This document shows, piece by piece, positions 51,433 to 58,977 of a DNA stretch of 64,000 bases. This stretch comes from a virus. The stretch is taken from positions 1-64,000 of the IMG/VR virus record IMGVR_UViG_3300045282_000112, one strand, 5' to 3'. Every line of letters starts with the position of its first letter. The stretch's first letter is position 1. Position numbers and translations under genes: made by a program. The notes below the pieces were generated by a model that was not told where the DNA came from, did not search any database, and saw only the letters and a list, made by a program, of their open reading frames with translations.

Positions 51433-51645
51433 TTAGTCGATGGGCGGGCCGACGTAGGTCAACACGTTGTTGCGCATTTCGAACAGGGTCCAGTCCTGCA
51501 GGTGCTCGGGCAGTTCGCTCTCGTATTCCGGGGTCCACTCCTGCGGCAGGTTACCGACCCAGTTGAAGGCGATGTAGTTCTCGCGATCCACTGGCAAGCC
51601 TGCCTTGACCAGCCACCTCTCGATCCCGTCAGGACTTCCTTGCAT
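51433..51645 (-). CDS. small acidic protein, candidate immunity protein
   Basis: GLPVDRENYIAFNW.G..P.EW..E.E.ELP..LQ; overlaps end of upstream effector-like gene. Confidence 0.6.
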   Translation of the reverse strand: MQGSPDGIERWLVKAGLPVDRENYIAFNWVGNLPQEWTPEYESELPEHLQDWTLFEMRNNVLTYVGPPID

Positions 51646-53353
51646 TTGCCCGTTCCCCTATCGCCCACACTGCGTCCAGCACCTTGTCGTGCGTGATCTT
51701 GTCGGCGTTGTAATCCTTCCACAACGCTGCGATCTCCGCATCGTCGGCCTTGTTGAGATTGGCGAACAGGTCGCGCTTCACCACCCAGATCACTGCCTGC
51801 ATCTGGTTGGGCAGCAGCGGCGGCTTCTGCTCGGCGGCCAATTGCCGATACGCCTCGGCGTATATGCCGTAGGTGCCGAAAGCACCGTAGCGGTTGCTGT
51901 CCTTGGCGGGCTCCCAGCCCTCGGGCTTCACCGACGGGTTGTTGGCGAGACCCTGCGAGACGGCGGGCGCGCCACCCGGGTAGGGCTGCATCCACGCTGC
52001 GCCGATAGCGTGCGTATCCATGGTCACGTCACCGTCGAGCCCGTCGGGGTCGAGGATGTTGTTGTAGAAATTGCGCACCTTGTGGACTTGGCTGAGCGCC
52101 TCGCTGATCTGGATGCGGTCGCCGTTCGCCATCAGCGCCGCCACTGCCGCGCCCGTCGCCTTGGTGTTGTTCCAGCCCGCCTTCGACTTCGCGCCGACTT
52201 CCTCGCCCGTATCCGGGGCGTTGGTGTGGAAGTCGCCGAAGGTGCCGTCGGGATTGTAGATGCGGAAGCCATGCCCGCCGTTCTGCGCGGGGTCGCCATG
52301 CGCCTCCTCGTAGGCGCGTATCCACAGGCCCTTCTCTTCGGCGCTCTCGCACTCAGCCAGCGTCTTGCCCACAATGGACGGCAGCATCTTCACCATCGGC
52401 GGCGTCTTCTTGACCTTGCCGGTCTCCCGCAGCTTCTTCTCGGCGGACTTCGCCTCGTCGCTGACCAGCTTGTCGGCGAACGCCTGCATGCCGTCGTCCC
52501 AAGCATGCTCCTGCTTGGTCATGTAGATGTCGATCAGCTGGTCGCCGAGATATATGTTCTGATCCCAGTCCTTCTGCGGCGAAAGTGCGGCGTAGACGGC
52601 GGCGACACTGGCGTCGTTCAGGCCATACTGCTTGACCTTGTGATCGACGATCTGGCGCGCGCCGCGATACCAGTTGACCGCCGTAAGCTGCGCTGCCGTG
52701 GCCTTGCCGAGCAGGTAGTTCATGTTGGTCTTCATGATGCGGATGGCGTTGTGCGCGATGTCGTTGGCGCTGCCCGTCAGCATCTCGGGCCGCATGCCCG
52801 GGTAGAAGTCGGGGTTCTTCATCAAGTCCATGTTGGCGCTGAAGCGGCCCTTCGTCGTGCCGTCGGGCAGCTTTACCGGGTCGTCCTCGGTGCGCTGCAT
52901 CTGCGCGAGGTCGTTCTGGACGTAGGTGTTGTCGCTGTTCTGCGTCTTGAACTTGGTCGAGGTGACGCTGGGGCTGATCTTGGCCGGGTGCGACGTGGGC
53001 TTGGTGCCGCTGATCCGCTCCTTCGGATAGGAGTGCGTGCCGGTCGCCGTTGCCGTCTTCTTGACCGCCTCGGCCTTTGGTGTGGCTGCCTTGCGCTCGC
53101 TGCCCGCCTTCTCGCTGCTGCCGCCGCTGCTGCCGCCACCCGTCGTCCACTCACCCTGCTCGTTGCGCGGCTCGTCGGGATCGTAGTCGGCGATGACGTG
53201 CTTCGGATGCTCGGCGGGCACGAGGAACAACACCTGACCGTCGGCGAAAGTCACCTTGGCGAGCGCATGGTTCTCACGGCTCGCGGGGCTCCAATCCGAC
53301 TTGACGTAGGCAACGGTAGCGCGCCGTCCGTTGATCTCCAGCTGCTCGATCAT
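51629..53353 (-). CDS. head-associated protein with DYDPDEPR motif and HhH-glycosylase-like C-terminal domain
   Basis: ATG 53353 overlaps upstream stop (ATGA); WY, AALSPQKDW..N, KVRNFYNNI, VTMDTHA, QA..W. Confidence 0.7.
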   Translation of the reverse strand: MIEQLEINGRRATVAYVKSDWSPASRENHALAKVTFADGQVLFLVPAEHPKHVIADYDPDEPRNEQGEWTTGGGSSGGSSEKAGSERKAATPKAEAVKKTATATGTHSYPKERISGTKPTSHPAKISPSVTSTKFKTQNSDNTYVQNDLAQMQRTEDDPVKLPDGTTKGRFSANMDLMKNPDFYPGMRPEMLTGSANDIAHNAIRIMKTNMNYLLGKATAAQLTAVNWYRGARQIVDHKVKQYGLNDASVAAVYAALSPQKDWDQNIYLGDQLIDIYMTKQEHAWDDGMQAFADKLVSDEAKSAEKKLRETGKVKKTPPMVKMLPSIVGKTLAECESAEEKGLWIRAYEEAHGDPAQNGGHGFRIYNPDGTFGDFHTNAPDTGEEVGAKSKAGWNNTKATGAAVAALMANGDRIQISEALSQVHKVRNFYNNILDPDGLDGDVTMDTHAIGAAWMQPYPGGAPAVSQGLANNPSVKPEGWEPAKDSNRYGAFGTYGIYAEAYRQLAAEQKPPLLPNQMQAVIWVVKRDLFANLNKADDAEIAALWKDYNADKITHDKVLDAVWAIGERANARKS

Positions 53354-56583: not shown

Positions 56584-58977
56584 TCAGCAGTCCTTCTGCC
56601 AGCCGCAGCCGTCACCGGAGCGGTTGTAACCCTCGACGTATCCGCGCTCCGAGGTCTTCTCGATCTCGTCGATGCGCGCCTCCTCCTCGGGGCTCTTGTT
56701 CTCCTTCGCCACGAGCACGCGGCGCTCCTCGTAGAGCTGGTGACCCTCGCCGAACTTGTATTCGAGCAGCGCGTGGGTGTTGAACTGCAGCTCGGTGACG
56801 ATGCCGTCCTTGGTGCGGAAGTTGAGCATCAGGTCACGGTAGCCTGCCATGGGGGTGAGGAAGCGGTCCTTGACGCGGATCACGTCGTTGTTTTCGACGA
56901 AGTCCGCCACCGCCTGACGCACGGTCACGCAGTCGTCGAAGGCGACGGTAGCGCGCAGCACATCCTTCAATCCCTCGGGTGGCACCTTCTCGTCGCGCAT
57001 CTTGCGCTCGGCCGACGAGCGCGCCTTCATGGTGCGGGTGCCGGGCTCGGCACTGGTAGCGGGCGGGTAGGTGACCTTGCCGCCGAACTTCTGTGCAAAC
57101 TCCTCGACCGTGCTCATGAACTCAGGCTCGGCGGTCTTGCAGGCCGCATACAGCTCGTCGATGTCGTTGGTCGGCTGTATCTGCTGATCCGGCGGCTGGT
57201 AATCCGCGCCCATGTTCTGCGCGATGTCGGTCTTCTTCGCGACCGTGGCCGTGCCCTTCGACTGCGGCGCGGTCTGGGTCTTGGTGCTGCCGGTAACCTT
57301 GGTCTCGCTGCTGGAGCTGCCGCCACCGCCGGGGCCGAACTTGCCCTTGTTGTCGGGCTGGCCGCGCGGGTGCTTGCTCTCTTCCCACTCGTCGCGCGAG
57401 CGCACGCCGAGTAGCTGCCGCACATGATCAGGATCGTAGTCGCGCGTGTGCCGGTAGCGGCGCAGGTTGAGGCGACCGGCGCTGACCGGCTTGGCGTCAC
57501 GGGTTGGCTTGCCGCCACCCTTCTGGAACGGGCTACCACCACCGGGCTTCTGCTGCCCCTGCTGGCTCGGGTGCTGGTTGCCCATGGCGTTGCCCGCCAG
57601 CATCTCCTTGCGCTTCTCGGCCTCGGCTTGCGCTGCCTGCTCCTCGGGGCTCTGCATGCTTTCGAGCGCGAGCTGTTCCTGATCCTCAAGCGCCTGCTCA
57701 AGGCCCGGGTAGACGCCATCCTCGATCAGCTGGTTCTGCCGCCCGATGCGCAACGCCTCGGCGTCGACCAGCCCCATCATGACATCAAGGTTGGTGACAT
57801 CGGCCTTCAACTTGGAGACCGCCGCCTTCTCGGTGGCGGGCATCTGCCACAGCGGGTTCCAGATGTAGTAGATCGACGGGTCGCGCTTGCCCAGTGCAGA
57901 GCGGATCAGTGCATCGTCAAGAGAAGCAAGGGCGGGAGACAATACATTGGTCTGATCTGAGTTAACTCGGTCGTAGTAGTTACGGACATCACTCTCTCCA
58001 GTAGACTGTAGTCCAGCAGGGGACTGTCCCAGCATACGTGTAGCGGGGATGTCTGCTGCACCGGAGGCGATGAGGAGATACATCTGCAGGACATCGGGGA
58101 GTTGCGTGAAATTCGCATTGATGCGCTCCCACTCCTCCTCCTTGTCGAGGAGCAGCGTGTTGATCACCGACTTCACCGAGTTGGCATACATGAAGCGTGC
58201 GGTGAGCCGGTTCTGATACTCGGCGGTGGCGATGTTCTGCGACAAATCGGGGATTTTAATGATGTCGAACTTGCTTTCGGTGACCAACGTCGCGATGGAC
58301 TGTGTCACCAGCGTCGCCGACATCACGGCGTCCTGCACGTTCTGCAGCACGGGATCGCCCCAGATTTCCCCCATCATCACGGGGTCGGGCAGCTGCATGC
58401 CCTTCAGCACGATGACCCGCGACGGGTGTATCTGGAACTCGTCGCGCGACAGCTCGGTGCCAACGTCCATGTTGCGCGTGAAGTAGAGCGGCTTGCCGTA
58501 GAGCGGGTCCATCACGTCCTTGATGAGCGGACCCGTGCCCAGCGCCCAGCGTGAGACGGGAATGATGAACTCCAGATCGCCCTTGCCGACCTTCTCGAAA
58601 TTCAGCGGCTGGCTGGCGCGTCCCTGCTTGATGCCCATGATGATCGCCGCGCCGCCGTAGAGGCGCGCCAAGATCAGCGCCTCCTTCAGCACGCACTGCA
58701 CATCGAGGCGCGTCTCTTCGGCCTCCAGCTTCTCGATGACGTTGGTGTCAGCCTGCCACGCACGCCACGCGCGGGTGGCATCCTGTGCCGGGATGTCGAT
58801 CAGCTTGCGGGCCAGCCAATTGGCGCGGTAAGCGCTCTCCAGCTCATACTGTGACAGCGGGTTGAACTGGAAAAACGACGCGCCCGAGGCGGCCTTGTCG
58901 CGCCCCGGCACGCCGAAGCCTGCCATGAGGTTGATCAGGCTGTCCTTGAACTCGGCAGTCACCCCTTGATAAGTCAT
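56584..58977 (-). CDS. portal protein (DUF1073-type) fused to C-terminal RelA/SpoT-like nucleotidyltransferase
   Basis: Portal: Y..NWLARK.IDIPA.D.TR.W, ARLYGG, IHPSR, A.DIP.TR..GQSP.G..STGE.D..NYYD. C-terminus: K...S..RK, D.LRA, KDRF, GYRD, ELQ, H.LYE. Confidence 0.88.
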   Translation of the reverse strand: MTYQGVTAEFKDSLINLMAGFGVPGRDKAASGASFFQFNPLSQYELESAYRANWLARKLIDIPAQDATRAWRAWQADTNVIEKLEAEETRLDVQCVLKEALILARLYGGAAIIMGIKQGRASQPLNFEKVGKGDLEFIIPVSRWALGTGPLIKDVMDPLYGKPLYFTRNMDVGTELSRDEFQIHPSRVIVLKGMQLPDPVMMGEIWGDPVLQNVQDAVMSATLVTQSIATLVTESKFDIIKIPDLSQNIATAEYQNRLTARFMYANSVKSVINTLLLDKEEEWERINANFTQLPDVLQMYLLIASGAADIPATRMLGQSPAGLQSTGESDVRNYYDRVNSDQTNVLSPALASLDDALIRSALGKRDPSIYYIWNPLWQMPATEKAAVSKLKADVTNLDVMMGLVDAEALRIGRQNQLIEDGVYPGLEQALEDQEQLALESMQSPEEQAAQAEAEKRKEMLAGNAMGNQHPSQQGQQKPGGGSPFQKGGGKPTRDAKPVSAGRLNLRRYRHTRDYDPDHVRQLLGVRSRDEWEESKHPRGQPDNKGKFGPGGGGSSSSETKVTGSTKTQTAPQSKGTATVAKKTDIAQNMGADYQPPDQQIQPTNDIDELYAACKTAEPEFMSTVEEFAQKFGGKVTYPPATSAEPGTRTMKARSSAERKMRDEKVPPEGLKDVLRATVAFDDCVTVRQAVADFVENNDVIRVKDRFLTPMAGYRDLMLNFRTKDGIVTELQFNTHALLEYKFGEGHQLYEERRVLVAKENKSPEEEARIDEIEKTSERGYVEGYNRSGDGCGWQKDC

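What the first reader, a model, noticed from the sequence alone, without database searches (positions are those of the whole stretch)
51433..58977. Capsid-loaded polymorphic effector array sharing a DPD.PR...G.W tag, with interleaved candidate immunity modules
Seen: between portal and MuF lie closely packed, mostly stop/start-overlapping genes carrying six enzyme-like domains (RelA/SpoT-like, HQxxH zincin-like, ART-like, GNAT-like, HExxH zincin-like, glycosylase-like). Four are preceded by a related motif plus Gly-rich spacer: DEWEESKHPRGQPDNKGKFGPGGG (57334-57393), DFDPDQPRDPSGQWTSGEGG (55624-55668), DAYDPDQPRVPAGEEGGGQWTGEGGG (54910-54972) and DYDPDEPRNEQGEWTTGGG (53144-53188). Most are followed by a small unrelated module: the N-terminus of 55785-56549, the nested ORF 54702-54965, the first ~46 aa of 51629-53353, and ORF 51433-51645. 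Established: MuF polymorphic toxins carry such domains with downstream immunity genes, but here MuF is short and the domains hang on the portal and on free-standing genes. Inference: a MuF-independent system in which the tag directs packaging or ejection of several host-modifying or anti-defence enzymes, daisy-chained with immunity modules. Best candidate for an undescribed system in this window.
Basis: partly seen in the sequence, partly recalled or inferred. Interest (0 to 1): 0.9.

Follow-up and report, generated by a model that had tools for sequence, protein, structure and literature searches.

The report
Tagged phage head cargo enzymes
Between the portal and head-protease genes of an 84-kb phage lies a string of enzyme domains that are probably carried in the head, each prefixed by a short peptide tag that is widespread in phages yet absent from Pfam and from the papers searched, and two of the enzymes have small conserved partner genes, one hidden in another reading frame.

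Summary
Window 51433-58977 (minus strand) is a head-module locus of the known 'polyvalent protein' kind. It holds a portal fused to a Tas1-like RelA/SpoT domain, a zincin-like protein, an ART-like/GNAT/HExxH protein and a DUF7178 protein with a glycosylase-like fold.

The four tags are real, and they are the only four in the 84-kb genome. The motif [FY]-DPD[QE]PRDxxG[KR]W-T-GGG hit at least 119 viral contigs; a reversed control pattern hit none. A profile of it found 2,553 protein clusters. It matches no Pfam family, no PDB chain and no paper I could search. Selection acts on the peptide, not the DNA. The tag is a prefix: 107 of 216 proteins carry it within the first 60 residues, and only 4 of 216 have 60 or fewer residues after it.

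Two of the four 'immunity modules' are conserved partner genes. The 70-aa gene follows DUF7178 in 53 of 55 loci. The nested ORF is an overprinted +1-frame gene ending at the start of the GNAT domain (57 of 66 loci; +2-frame control 7 of 66).

The 'MuF-independent new system' reading is not supported. What the tag does (my guess: a head-loading label) and what the partner genes do remain untested.

The parts
57568..58977 (-). Portal core (aa 1-470 of the 797-aa protein)
   Evidence: PF06381 Phage_portal_3 at E 7.5e-99, aa 44-395; phrog_146 at 9.6e-119.
57337..57384 (-). Tag, F-type variant (KHPR...GKF, then GGGG), between the portal and the C-terminal enzyme domain
   Evidence: Regex hit. The 90-aa linker that holds it matches multi-copy junction motifs in other polyvalent ORFs, for example L134 at E 5.4e-12.
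56587..57300 (-). RelA/SpoT-type (Tas1-like) nucleotide pyrophosphokinase domain fused to the portal C-terminus
   Evidence: phmmer against PDB: 6ox6 Tas1 at E 2.1e-5, query residues 43-183. Pfam RelA_SpoT is below its cut-off, 14.4 bits.
55785..56549 (-). g254: zincin-like domain (about aa 57-254) with HQxxH in place of HExxH, plus an N-terminal ~60-95 aa that has no detectable relatives
   Evidence: Atlas features 0.93 with ATLF, Peptidase_M90 and Mx1 clusters; structural rows cover residues 57-254. No Pfam or PDB hit. Related domains in P0001 and P0006 carry HExxH.
53350..55788 (-). g812: three-domain polyvalent protein (leader, tag, ART-like, tag, Gly linker, GNAT, HExxH)
   Evidence: Gene call P0072, 812 aa; GTGA overlap with the g254 stop.
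55627..55668 (-). Tag 1 of g812 (W-type), about 40 aa from the N-terminus
54964..55608 (-). ART-like domain (a lead, not established)
   Evidence: Atlas 0.88 to Tox-ART-HYD1, PARP, Exotoxin A and Arr clusters. R, S/T and E are invariant across 4 homologues. hhalign and the PDB profile search were negative. About 42% identity to part of the Pag-Yong1 'large polyvalent protein'.
54913..54963 (-). Tag 2 of g812 (W-type with a longer loop), followed by a ~60-aa Gly/Ala/Ser/Pro linker
54702..54965 (-). Nested 87-aa ORF in the +1 frame of g812, with AGGAGG about 10 nt before its ATG; its stop lies at the start of the GNAT domain
   Evidence: A family with a conserved C-terminal motif (HPxLTxEEAxxhxxxG[FM]-stop). 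HMM hits in 49 of 80 GNAT loci, 0 of 80 DUF7178 loci and 4 of 119 tag loci. 47 of 49 hits are in the +1 frame, with the stop at a fixed position. A +1-frame ORF is present in 57 of 66 loci against 7 of 66 for the +2 frame, and in 32 of 32 against 3 of 32 at GC below 0.55. Main-frame GC3 here is 0.45, against 0.75-0.89 in the genes.
54139..54771 (-). GNAT-fold domain of a family without a Pfam model
   Evidence: AF2 pLDDT 86.0. Foldseek pdb: the listed top hits are GNAT acetyltransferases, best 1yr0 at E 1.8e-4, prob 1.00. None of the 61 members matched an acetyltransferase family; a single member hit DUF5034 at E 0.002.
53353..54156 (-). HExxH (gluzincin-like) C-terminal domain
   Evidence: H123, E124, H127, E226 and E230 are invariant in 15 homologues. 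Only sub-threshold hits appear, all to Zn peptidases: SprT-like, M48, DUF5700, DUF2268, M78, Ste24p.
51629..53353 (-). g574: N-module (53189-53353), tag (53147-53188), Ser/Thr/Lys-rich linker, DUF7178 domain (51632-52966)
   Evidence: PF23802 at E 4.7e-20. AF2 pLDDT 91.3. VIA-wide: 3n0u Z 9.1, 7u07 Z 8.5, 1xqp Z 7.2, then EndoIII, MagIII, OGG1, MutY.
51433..51645 (-). g70: small acidic protein (net charge -8), conserved partner gene of DUF7178
   Evidence: It follows DUF7178 in 53 of 55 evaluable non-redundant loci and is never fused in frame to it. Alignment A8; charge.
49963..51048 (-). MuF-like head protein (context, outside the finding); it carries no effector domain
   Evidence: PF04233 at 29.4 bits against a cut-off of 29.6, C-terminal part only; PHROG minor head protein and head morphogenesis families.
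47734..49206 (-). Prohead protease/scaffold (ChaB + DUF2213) (context)
   Evidence: PF09979 at 1.9e-50 and PF06150 at 9.2e-19; phrog_530.

Best explanation
This is the head-associated 'polyvalent protein' (virion-carried effector) locus of a tailed phage, spread over the portal gene and three translationally coupled genes.

Shown.
- The domains: a Tas1-like RelA/SpoT domain, a zincin-like domain, a GNAT fold, an HhH-GPD-like DUF7178 domain and a gluzincin-like HExxH domain. The ART-like call is only a lead.
- The position of the locus, between the portal and the MuF/protease/capsid genes.
- A peptide-level-conserved tag that prefixes four of the domains.
- Two conserved small partner genes.

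Inferred (a). Each cargo unit is 'tag + Gly-rich tether + domain'. The tag is a head-internal address label, analogous to the T4 capsid-targeting sequence. It would bind a component of the assembling prohead so that the domain behind it is enclosed and later leaves with the DNA. Where units are chained, or hang on the portal, MuF or the protease, the same joints may also be the places where the chain is cut.

Inferred (b). The 70-aa acidic protein and the overprinted 87-aa protein bind their neighbouring enzymes (DUF7178 and GNAT). They either keep them inactive in the producing cell or keep them loading-competent.
For: Locus type. Portal, MuF, protease and capsid genes flank it. Iyer 2017 describes portal/MuF-effector fusions and ART+GNAT neighbours in phage polyvalent proteins (passages).

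Tag is real and widespread.
- 4 of 4 genome hits lie in these genes.
- At least 119 viral stretches match, against 0 for the reversed control.
- 2,553 clusters at E<=1e-3 among 1.84 billion representatives, with up to 11 stretches per protein.

Peptide-level selection. All synonymous codons are used. Third-position identity is 0.51 among codons for the same residue.

Head context.
- Three portal families in 13 of 81 upstream segments.
- MuF, DUF2213, S78 protease and HK97 capsid in the same polypeptides.
- Where PF04233 is found (18 of 35 contigs of 30 kb or more), comparing match positions with locus ranges puts it mostly within about 10 kb of the tag.

Prefix behaviour.
- The first tag lies within 20 aa of the N-terminus in 33 of 216 proteins and within 60 aa in 107 of 216.
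- 60 or fewer residues follow the last tag in only 4 of 216.
- Median spacing between tags is 245 aa.
- Single-domain genes keep the tag, as g574 does.

T4 precedent. Diverse internal proteins share only a conserved CTS that loads them into the scaffolding core (passage in PMC3012670).

Partners.
- g70 follows DUF7178 in 53 of 55 loci.
- The nested ORF is present in 57 of 66 loci against 7 of 66 for the +2 frame.
- Many copies have their own SD and ATG, including in low-GC contigs and in the cultured Limnohabitans phage DC33.
- Both partners are acidic.
Against: - No experiment or complex prediction supports binding of the tag to anything, and no receptor was identified.
- No single head-protein family was shown to accompany the tag. 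PF04233 MuF was found in only 9 of 14 near-complete tag-bearing genomes. The strict MuF Cys motif was found in 5 of 52 loci of 9 kb or more.
- A domain fused to the portal needs no address label, so on the portal the tag must do something else, such as marking a cut site, or be a leftover of cassette shuffling.
- The tag peptide is far more conserved than phage capsid, portal or scaffold proteins usually are. That fits a conserved host partner at least as well.
- The canonical tag is almost absent from 50,697 cultured phage genomes: 1 weak hit, and 19 weak hits for the F-type. No virion proteome could therefore be consulted.
- The partner genes may be chaperones or regulators rather than inhibitors.
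- g254 carries HQxxH, which may be catalytically dead.
Confidence: 0.5

Rival explanations
1. The tag is chiefly a proteolytic processing site. The chains are polyproteins cut at each tag into single enzymes, either by the prohead protease or by the zincin-like domains they carry.
For: - Tags sit at domain junctions with domain-sized spacing, median 245 aa, and up to 8-11 per protein.
- Portal, MuF, protease and capsid domains occur in one polypeptide with tags between them, as in P0019 and P0062.
- HExxH occurs in 27 of 86 tag proteins, far above chance.
- Iyer 2017 proposes processing of polyvalent proteins by zincin-like peptidases (abstract and passage).
Against: - A separator is not needed before the first domain, yet 33 of 216 proteins carry a tag within their first 20 residues. 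Single-domain genes also keep it.
- The window's capsid, scaffold/protease and MuF proteins carry no tag.
- The prohead proteases found in tag-bearing polypeptides belong to at least two different Pfam families, DUF2213 and S78, and 59 of 86 tag proteins lack HExxH.
- A 13-residue invariant motif is long for a cleavage site.
Confidence: 0.2
2. The tag works after injection, in the host cell. It would be a docking motif for a conserved bacterial factor, for example a chaperone, a protease or a localisation partner, that refolds, releases or places each enzyme.
For: - The peptide is conserved almost letter for letter across phages with three portal families and very different GC content. This is easier to explain by a slowly evolving host partner.
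- It prefixes every kind of enzyme.
Against: - Among the Pfam architectures seen there were no relaxase, T4SS or other conjugative-element partners, although polyvalent proteins also occur there (Iyer 2017 passage).
- The tag also precedes structural head proteins such as MuF and proteases, which have no obvious need for a host partner.
Confidence: 0.15
3. One reading: a new, MuF-independent delivery system in which each enzyme is followed by its own immunity module, daisy-chained.
For: - The window's MuF carries no effector.
- Two small genes are tightly linked to two of the enzymes.
- In 9 of 59 DUF7178 loci the g70-like module lies inside a larger downstream ORF. In L044 that ORF continues into a tag.
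Against: - The class is already described as polyvalent proteins.
- The tag and MuF share polypeptides elsewhere.
- The nested ORF goes with the downstream GNAT, not with the upstream ART-like domain.
- The g574 N-module lies before, not after, the zincin domain in L137, L153 and L158.
- The g254 N-terminus has no relatives.
- Immunity was not tested.
Confidence: 0.1
4. The tag is a passive linker relic, kept only because it marks recombination joints between shuffled cassettes.
For: It lies at the borders of highly shuffled domains.
Against: - Synonymous sites vary freely while 9-10 of 13 residues are nearly fixed. Selection is therefore on the peptide.
- The reversed control pattern gave 0 matches.
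Confidence: 0.05

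Closest known systems
Polyvalent proteins of phages and conjugative elements (Iyer, Burroughs, Anand, de Souza, Aravind 2017, PMC5512222; abstract and passages read)
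   Same: - Several unrelated enzyme domains in one polypeptide, encoded beside virion packaging genes.
- Fusions to portal and MuF.
- RelA/SpoT, ART, GNAT (typically next to ART), zincin-like peptidase and Zeta-like domains.
- Predicted delivery with the DNA.
   Different: - The main text has no occurrence of 'linker', 'glycine-rich', 'low-complexity', 'spacer', 'boundaries', 'tryptophan', 'overlapping' or 'glycosylase'. I therefore found no description of the tag, of the overprinted gene or of a DUF7178/partner pair. Its supplements and FTP files could not be seen.
- Here the chain is split over four coupled genes.
MuF polymorphic toxins of temperate phages (Jamet et al. 2017, PMC5576092; passages read)
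   Same: - Toxin-type domains (ART, RelA/SpoT-like) attached to a head protein encoded next to the portal.
- The idea of cognate protective genes.
   Different: - The window's MuF has no toxin domain; the enzymes hang on the portal and on separate genes.
- The paper's main text has no occurrence of 'motif', 'linker', 'pre-toxin', 'cleavage' or 'glycine'.
T4 internal proteins with the capsid targeting sequence (Rao and Black 2010, PMC3012670; passages read)
   Same: A short conserved N-terminal peptide is the only thing shared by diverse head-packaged anti-host proteins, and it loads them into the prohead core.
   Different: - There is no sequence relation that I tested.
- The present tag also occurs internally, many times per chain, and on portal, MuF and protease fusions.
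- Its loading role is inferred, not shown.
Tas1, the (p)ppApp-synthesising T6SS effector (PDB 6ox6; the molecule name is, its activity is recalled)
   Same: The portal C-terminal domain aligns to Tas1 residues 245-374 at E 2.1e-5.
   Different: It is fused to a phage portal, not to a T6SS carrier. Activity and product are unknown, and the Pfam RelA_SpoT score is below threshold.
Type II toxin-antitoxin pairs with GNAT toxins (TacAT, AtaRT; recalled, not tested)
   Same: A small gene sits immediately upstream of a GNAT and ends at its start.
   Different: - Here the small gene is overprinted inside a larger gene that reads through into the GNAT.
- No DNA-binding domain was shown.
- The nearest solved GNATs by fold are phosphinothricin-type acetyltransferases.
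Small acidic inhibitors of DNA glycosylases such as phage Ugi (recalled, not tested)
   Same: A small, very acidic phage protein encoded with a glycosylase-fold enzyme.
   Different: No sequence or fold comparison was made. It would act on the phage's own enzyme rather than on a host enzyme. Binding is not shown.

Membership tests
Phage polyvalent proteins (Iyer 2017) | Two or more unrelated catalytic domains in one polypeptide | tested here: met
   g812 holds a GNAT fold, an HExxH domain and an ART-like domain (lead). The portal is fused to a Tas1-like domain.
Phage polyvalent proteins (Iyer 2017) | Encoded in the context of phage packaging and late structural genes | tested here: met
   The terminase, portal, MuF, protease and major head protein genes flank it.
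Phage polyvalent proteins (Iyer 2017) | Packaged in the virion and transferred to the host with the DNA | not testable with these tools
   Needs virion proteomics or injection assays.
MuF polymorphic toxins (Jamet 2017) | N-terminal MuF domain fused to a C-terminal toxin domain | tested here: not met
   The MuF-like protein 49963-51048 matches only MuF families and has no extra domain. The enzymes lie on the portal and other genes.
MuF polymorphic toxins (Jamet 2017) | Cognate immunity gene next to the toxin domain | tested here: inconclusive
   Conserved small partner genes exist for DUF7178 and GNAT, but protection was not tested.
Capsid targeting sequence-type label (T4 CTS) | Short conserved peptide at the N-terminal side of otherwise unrelated head-internal proteins | tested here: met
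   Prefix asymmetry: 107 of 216 against 4 of 216 within 60 residues. More than 15 unrelated Pfam families lie downstream.
Capsid targeting sequence-type label (T4 CTS) | Necessary and sufficient for loading into proheads; removed by the prohead protease | not testable with these tools
   Needs genetics and proteomics.
RelA/SpoT (RSH) synthetase superfamily | Significant sequence match to an RSH synthetase domain | tested here: met
   6ox6 Tas1 at E 2.1e-5 over 141 residues. Pfam PF04607 scores only 14.4 bits against a cut-off of 27.
GNAT acetyltransferase fold | GNAT fold | tested here: met
   AF2 pLDDT 86. The listed top Foldseek matches are GNATs, prob about 1.00, TM 0.41-0.55. No acetyltransferase Pfam model matched any of the 61 members.
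HhH-GPD DNA glycosylase superfamily | Shared fold over most of the domain | tested here: inconclusive
   The 21 best VIA rows are HhH-GPD enzymes or DUF2419 (Z 9.1-4.6, 153-232 residues aligned). Z is below the level the tool asks for in helical proteins, and Foldseek found nothing.
HhH-GPD DNA glycosylase superfamily | Hairpin motif and catalytic Asp/Lys in place | not tested
   Invariant residues are listed but were not mapped on the superposition.
ADP-ribosyltransferases | Profile or fold match and a catalytic triad | tested here: inconclusive
   Atlas 0.88 to ART clusters, with 5 of the ten best hits that carry a Pfam family sharing a family or clan with the best hit. R, S/T and E are invariant in 4 sequences. 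hhalign probability against a PF03496-positive segment is 0.1. The PDB profile search found nothing. No model was folded.
Zincin metallopeptidases (g254) | HExxH with a catalytic Glu | tested here: not met
   g254 reads HQxxH. Its fold and feature neighbours are zincins, so it works like, or derives from, a zincin but may be inactive.
Type II GNAT toxin-antitoxin modules | Small gene immediately upstream of, and ending at, the GNAT | tested here: met
   47 of 49 hits are in the +1 frame, with the stop at a fixed point of the GNAT profile. Present in 57 of 66 loci.
Type II GNAT toxin-antitoxin modules | The antitoxin neutralises the toxin and has a DNA-binding domain | not tested

The most novel reading that the evidence does not exclude
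The tag is a general cargo-loading label of tailed-phage heads. It would be a roughly 13-residue peptide, used by thousands of phage lineages with different portals and proteases, that is enough to enclose any protein behind it in the capsid and have it delivered with the DNA. Alongside it, phages would hide neutraliser genes for their own cargo enzymes in the alternative frame of the linker that follows the tag.
Probability: 0.3. Interest if true: 0.85.

Novelty: new variant of a known kind. Interest (0 to 1): 0.72.

Why it matters
How phages choose which proteins to enclose in the head and send into the cell is known in detail for very few model phages. The searches here found no Pfam model for this short peptide, no solved structure containing it, and no paper describing it. 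It nevertheless marks thousands of candidate virion-carried enzymes in metagenomes, among them anti-CBASS Acb1, NUDIX, Zeta, ART, GNAT and glycosylase-like domains. It therefore gives a direct way to catalogue them. If it is a loading signal, it is also a portable handle for packaging proteins into phages. The overprinted gene before the GNAT domain, and the DUF7178/acidic-partner pair, are two clean and testable cases of a phage apparently controlling its own cargo enzymes. The first is also a well-supported bacterial-virus example of a conserved gene hidden in a linker's second frame.

Tried and rejected
Tag receptor.
- MuF as the universal partner was rejected as unproven. PF04233 was found in 18 of 35 tag contigs of 30 kb or more, and in 9 of 14 near-complete ones. 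I gave that of the contigs behind the 119 loci, chosen by length, and left out L069 and L099, whose matches lie in very short ORFs. The strict Cys motif was found in 5 of 52 loci.
- The prohead protease site idea was weakened because no tag lies in the window's capsid, scaffold or protease genes.

Tag in solved structures. The profile A4 found only partial chance matches at E>=0.41.

Tag in cultured phages. One weak hit for the W-type. 19 weak hits for the F-type, 5 of them under features annotated as portal or HI1409 family.

Literature.
- Motif strings (DPDQPR, DPDEPR, NPDQPR, DPNQPR, QPRDxxG, HPRDxxG) gave 3 unrelated papers.
- 'DUF7178' gave 0 papers.
- Supplements were closed, so those of Iyer 2017 and Jamet 2017 may hold relevant alignments.

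Polyvalent proteins of Pag-Yong1, DC33 and UtzChips MuF. No tag by regex.

ART domain. hhalign gave probability 0.1 and the PDB profile search found nothing.

DUF7178. Foldseek pdb gave no match.

g254 and g574 against PDB. Nothing.

Nested ORF.
- The single-sequence search of the big collection found nothing. The profile search then found 70 small proteins, none with a Pfam family.
- ATGA coupling of the nested stop to an internal GNAT start, a lead from note e1-6114462, holds in the window only: 1 of 39.
- A common origin of g70 and the nested protein is not supported: hhalign probability 1.4%.

g574 N-module as partner of the zincin domain. It is adjacent in the window, L086 and L148, but lies upstream of the whole chain in L137, L153 and L158.

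Counts and dropped rows.
- One search used 113 of 129 matches, after dropping ORFs under 100 aa and duplicates.
- One search scanned 109 of those 113, and one search scanned 81 of 113. Segments under 60 aa were left out.
- Most scanned segments had no Pfam hit.

Full report
WHAT IS THERE. The window is the first 64 kb of a single 84,383-bp virus record. On the minus strand lie the large terminase (61738-63288), a 797-aa portal (56584-58977), four tightly packed genes, a Gp80-like small gene, a MuF-like protein (49963-51048), a ChaB+DUF2213 prohead protease (47734-49206), a phrog_563 protein and the major head protein (46250-47188). The four genes are g254 (55785-56549), g812 (53350-55788), g574 (51629-53353) and g70 (51433-51645). 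The g254 stop overlaps the g812 start as GTGA. The g812 stop overlaps the g574 start as ATGA. g574 and g70 overlap by 17 nt. The g812 start agrees with the 812-aa protein P0072 returned for this contig.

THE DOMAINS.
- The portal C-terminus (from about aa 600) aligns to the Tas1 chain 6ox6 at E 2.1e-5. The Pfam RelA_SpoT score is below threshold.
- g254 has zincin neighbours by language-model features (0.93; ATLF, M90 and Mx1 clusters, some of them C-terminal domains of MuF proteins) and by the Atlas model. It reads HQxxH where relatives in P0001 and P0006 read HExxH.
- The middle domain of g812 is a GNAT by fold: AF2 pLDDT 86, and the listed top Foldseek matches are GNATs. No acetyltransferase Pfam model matched any of 61 members.
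- The C-terminal domain of g812 keeps HExxH and a downstream Glu in 15 homologues. It collects only weak, but exclusively Zn-peptidase, hits.
- The first domain of g812 is only a lead for an ART: Atlas 0.88, invariant R, S/T and E, but profile tests were negative.
- DUF7178 in g574 folds with pLDDT 91.3. Foldseek finds nothing. The exhaustive aligner puts HhH-GPD glycosylases and the queuine-salvage DUF2419 in its first 21 rows, Z 9.1 to 4.6. I read this as a probable but unproven shared fold.
- ART+GNAT neighbours, RelA/SpoT domains, zincin peptidases and portal/MuF fusions are all features of the phage 'polyvalent proteins' of Iyer et al. 2017 (passages). Part of g812 is about 42% identical to a stretch of the Planktothrix phage Pag-Yong1 'large polyvalent protein'.

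THE TAG.
- Occurrence in this genome. A regex for the motif finds four instances in six frames of the whole genome, all in these genes and in frame.
- Occurrence in viral contigs. The reversed pattern found none.
- Conservation. In 113 non-redundant instances the positions I had left free are conserved too: F/Y before the first D, D-E/D after PR, K/R before W, T/S after W, then GGG.
- Level of selection. Synonymous sites vary freely, so the peptide is selected, not the DNA.
- Wider counts. A profile found 86 proteins among the 8,000 candidates scored in the named collection. It found 2,553 clusters at E<=1e-3 among 1.84 billion representatives, with up to 11 stretches in one protein.
- No Pfam model. 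Many tag proteins have no precomputed Pfam family at all, and none is common to all of them.
- No structure or paper. No PDB chain holds the tag. The motif strings are in no relevant paper of the searchable library.
- A second flavour, KHPR..G[KR]F, is the one on the window's portal. It recurs in many copies in other chains.

WHERE THE TAG SITS.
- Upstream, in the same reading frame (81 segments scanned): portals of three Pfam families in 13, and also ART, Acb1, MuF and DUF2213.
- Downstream (109 segments scanned): Zeta toxin 8, ADPrib_exo_Tox 7, MuF 4, ParB_N 3, DUF7178 2, ART-PolyVal 2, and single cases of Acb1, NUDIX, Tox-REase-5, DUF2213 and others. Most segments had no Pfam hit.
- Whole proteins combine these with S78 protease and HK97 capsid domains.
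- The tag is a prefix. In 216 proteins with 724 tags, the first tag lies within 20 residues of the start in 33 and within 60 in 107. Only 4 have 60 or fewer residues after the last tag. The median spacing is 245 residues.

HOW THE TAG MOST LIKELY WORKS.
- The unit is tag + flexible Gly tether + domain. It is kept even when a domain stands alone as a gene or starts a chain.
- A pure separator would not be needed there. This weakens, but does not exclude, the cleavage-site reading.
- The window's capsid, scaffold/protease and MuF genes carry no tag.
- Prohead proteases found fused in tag-bearing polypeptides belong to different families.
- The closest working precedent is T4, whose diverse internal proteins share only a capsid targeting sequence that loads them into the scaffolding core (passage).
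- I therefore favour a head-loading label, possibly doubling as the place where chains are cut.
- Against this: no receptor emerged. MuF (PF04233) is in only 9 of 14 near-complete tag genomes. A portal-fused domain needs no label. The extreme conservation would also fit a host partner.
- This step is inference throughout.

THE SMALL MODULES.
(1) g70. With a DUF7178 profile I fetched 80 loci, 59 of them non-redundant. A g70-like module lies just downstream in 53. In 4 the locus ends first, and 2 lack it. It is a separate small ORF in 44, part of a larger downstream ORF in 9, and never fused in frame to DUF7178. It is very acidic, net charge -8.

(2) The nested ORF.
- In the window it has AGGAGG about 10 nt before its ATG.
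- It covers the Gly-rich linker. There the main frame has GC3 of 0.45, against 0.75-0.89 in the genes.
- Homologues of the GNAT domain carry, in the same +1 frame, an ORF with a conserved C-terminal motif that stops at a fixed point of the GNAT profile.
- An iterated HMM hits 49 of 80 GNAT loci, 0 of 80 DUF7178 loci and 4 of 119 tag loci.
- A plain ORF test gives 57 of 66 for the +1 frame against 7 of 66 for the +2 frame. In low-GC loci it gives 32 of 32 against 3 of 32.
- 42 of 49 lie wholly inside the long GNAT-bearing ORF.
- Many have their own SD and ATG, including in the cultured Limnohabitans phage DC33.
- Gene callers have listed 70 such small proteins, none with a Pfam family.
- It is thus a conserved overprinted gene tied to the GNAT that follows it, not to the ART-like domain before it.
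- The ATGA overlap with an internal Met, a lead from note e1-6114462, is peculiar to the window: 1 of 39.

(3) The g574 N-module recurs before a tag in L148 and L086. It occurs as a free small ORF upstream of whole chains in L137, L153 and L158. It is a leader, not a partner of the zincin domain.

(4) The g254 N-terminus has no relatives.

Whether g70 and the nested protein inhibit, chaperone or regulate their neighbours is not shown; the complex predictor was unavailable.

COMPARISON AND NOVELTY. The locus is a member of the known polyvalent-protein kind. It fails the defining architecture of MuF polymorphic toxins. Three things appear to be new as far as my searches reach (supplements not visible):
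- the junction tag as a family-wide, peptide-conserved prefix;
- the overprinted gene before the GNAT domain;
- the DUF7178/acidic-partner pair, with its glycosylase-like fold.

VERDICT. I rate it a new variant of a known kind, interest 0.72.

Noticed in passing
window 40002-40526 (-): A second small protein (174 aa) matches the C-terminal MuF/minor-head-protein motif in PHROGs (phrog_115 at 7.8e-9 and others). It lies about 10 kb from the head module, among tail and late genes.
   Followed up: no
window 50858-51316 (-): A ~150-aa gene between g70 and MuF matches Pfam Gp80 (podophage GP4 fiber I protein) at 31 bits. A fibre-type domain inside the head module is odd.
   Followed up: no
window 47734-49206 (-): The prohead protease (DUF2213) carries an N-terminal ChaB domain and a Cys/Asp-rich repeat before the protease domain. 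The relative L071 has the same fusion in a 933-aa ORF.
   Followed up: partly
L011, L032, L033, L044, L084, L086, L097 and P0062, downstream of tags: A recurrent start '(E)HPG.GYS' directly after tag+Gly linker opens a domain that in P0062 continues into a ParB-like nuclease region. It is one of the most recurrent cargo domain starts seen after the tag in the listing.
   Followed up: no
P0033 (1549 aa): At least five copies of a roughly 120-200-aa unknown domain (five tag variants by regex), each preceded by a tag variant (F-N-A/P-S-Q-A/P-R-D..GRW), are fused to an HK97-type prohead protease.
   Followed up: no
L002 (Limnohabitans phage DC33, PQ492659.1): The record is filed under Inoviridae, but it encodes a 3125-aa polyvalent protein with LPD22, ART-PolyVal and the GNAT-like domain, plus the nested +1-frame ORF. 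The taxonomy line looks wrong for such a genome.
   Followed up: no
L005 / P0069: A pyridine-nucleotide-disulphide oxidoreductase domain sits upstream of a tag followed by an ADP-ribosyltransferase. In P0069 it shares a polypeptide with an S78 protease and an HK97 capsid domain.
   Followed up: no
L134-L136: These DUF7178 loci lack a g70-like ORF downstream on the same strand, but phmmer finds a g70-like stretch on the opposite strand overlapping the region (E 1.1e-6).
   Followed up: no
window 56265-56549 (-) and 55669-55788 (-): The leaders before tags often end in an amphipathic helix (W..[LI][RK]A.[AS]...L...[KR]F) in many loci. The g812 leader is a weak version of it. It may be part of the functional tag module.
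   Followed up: partly
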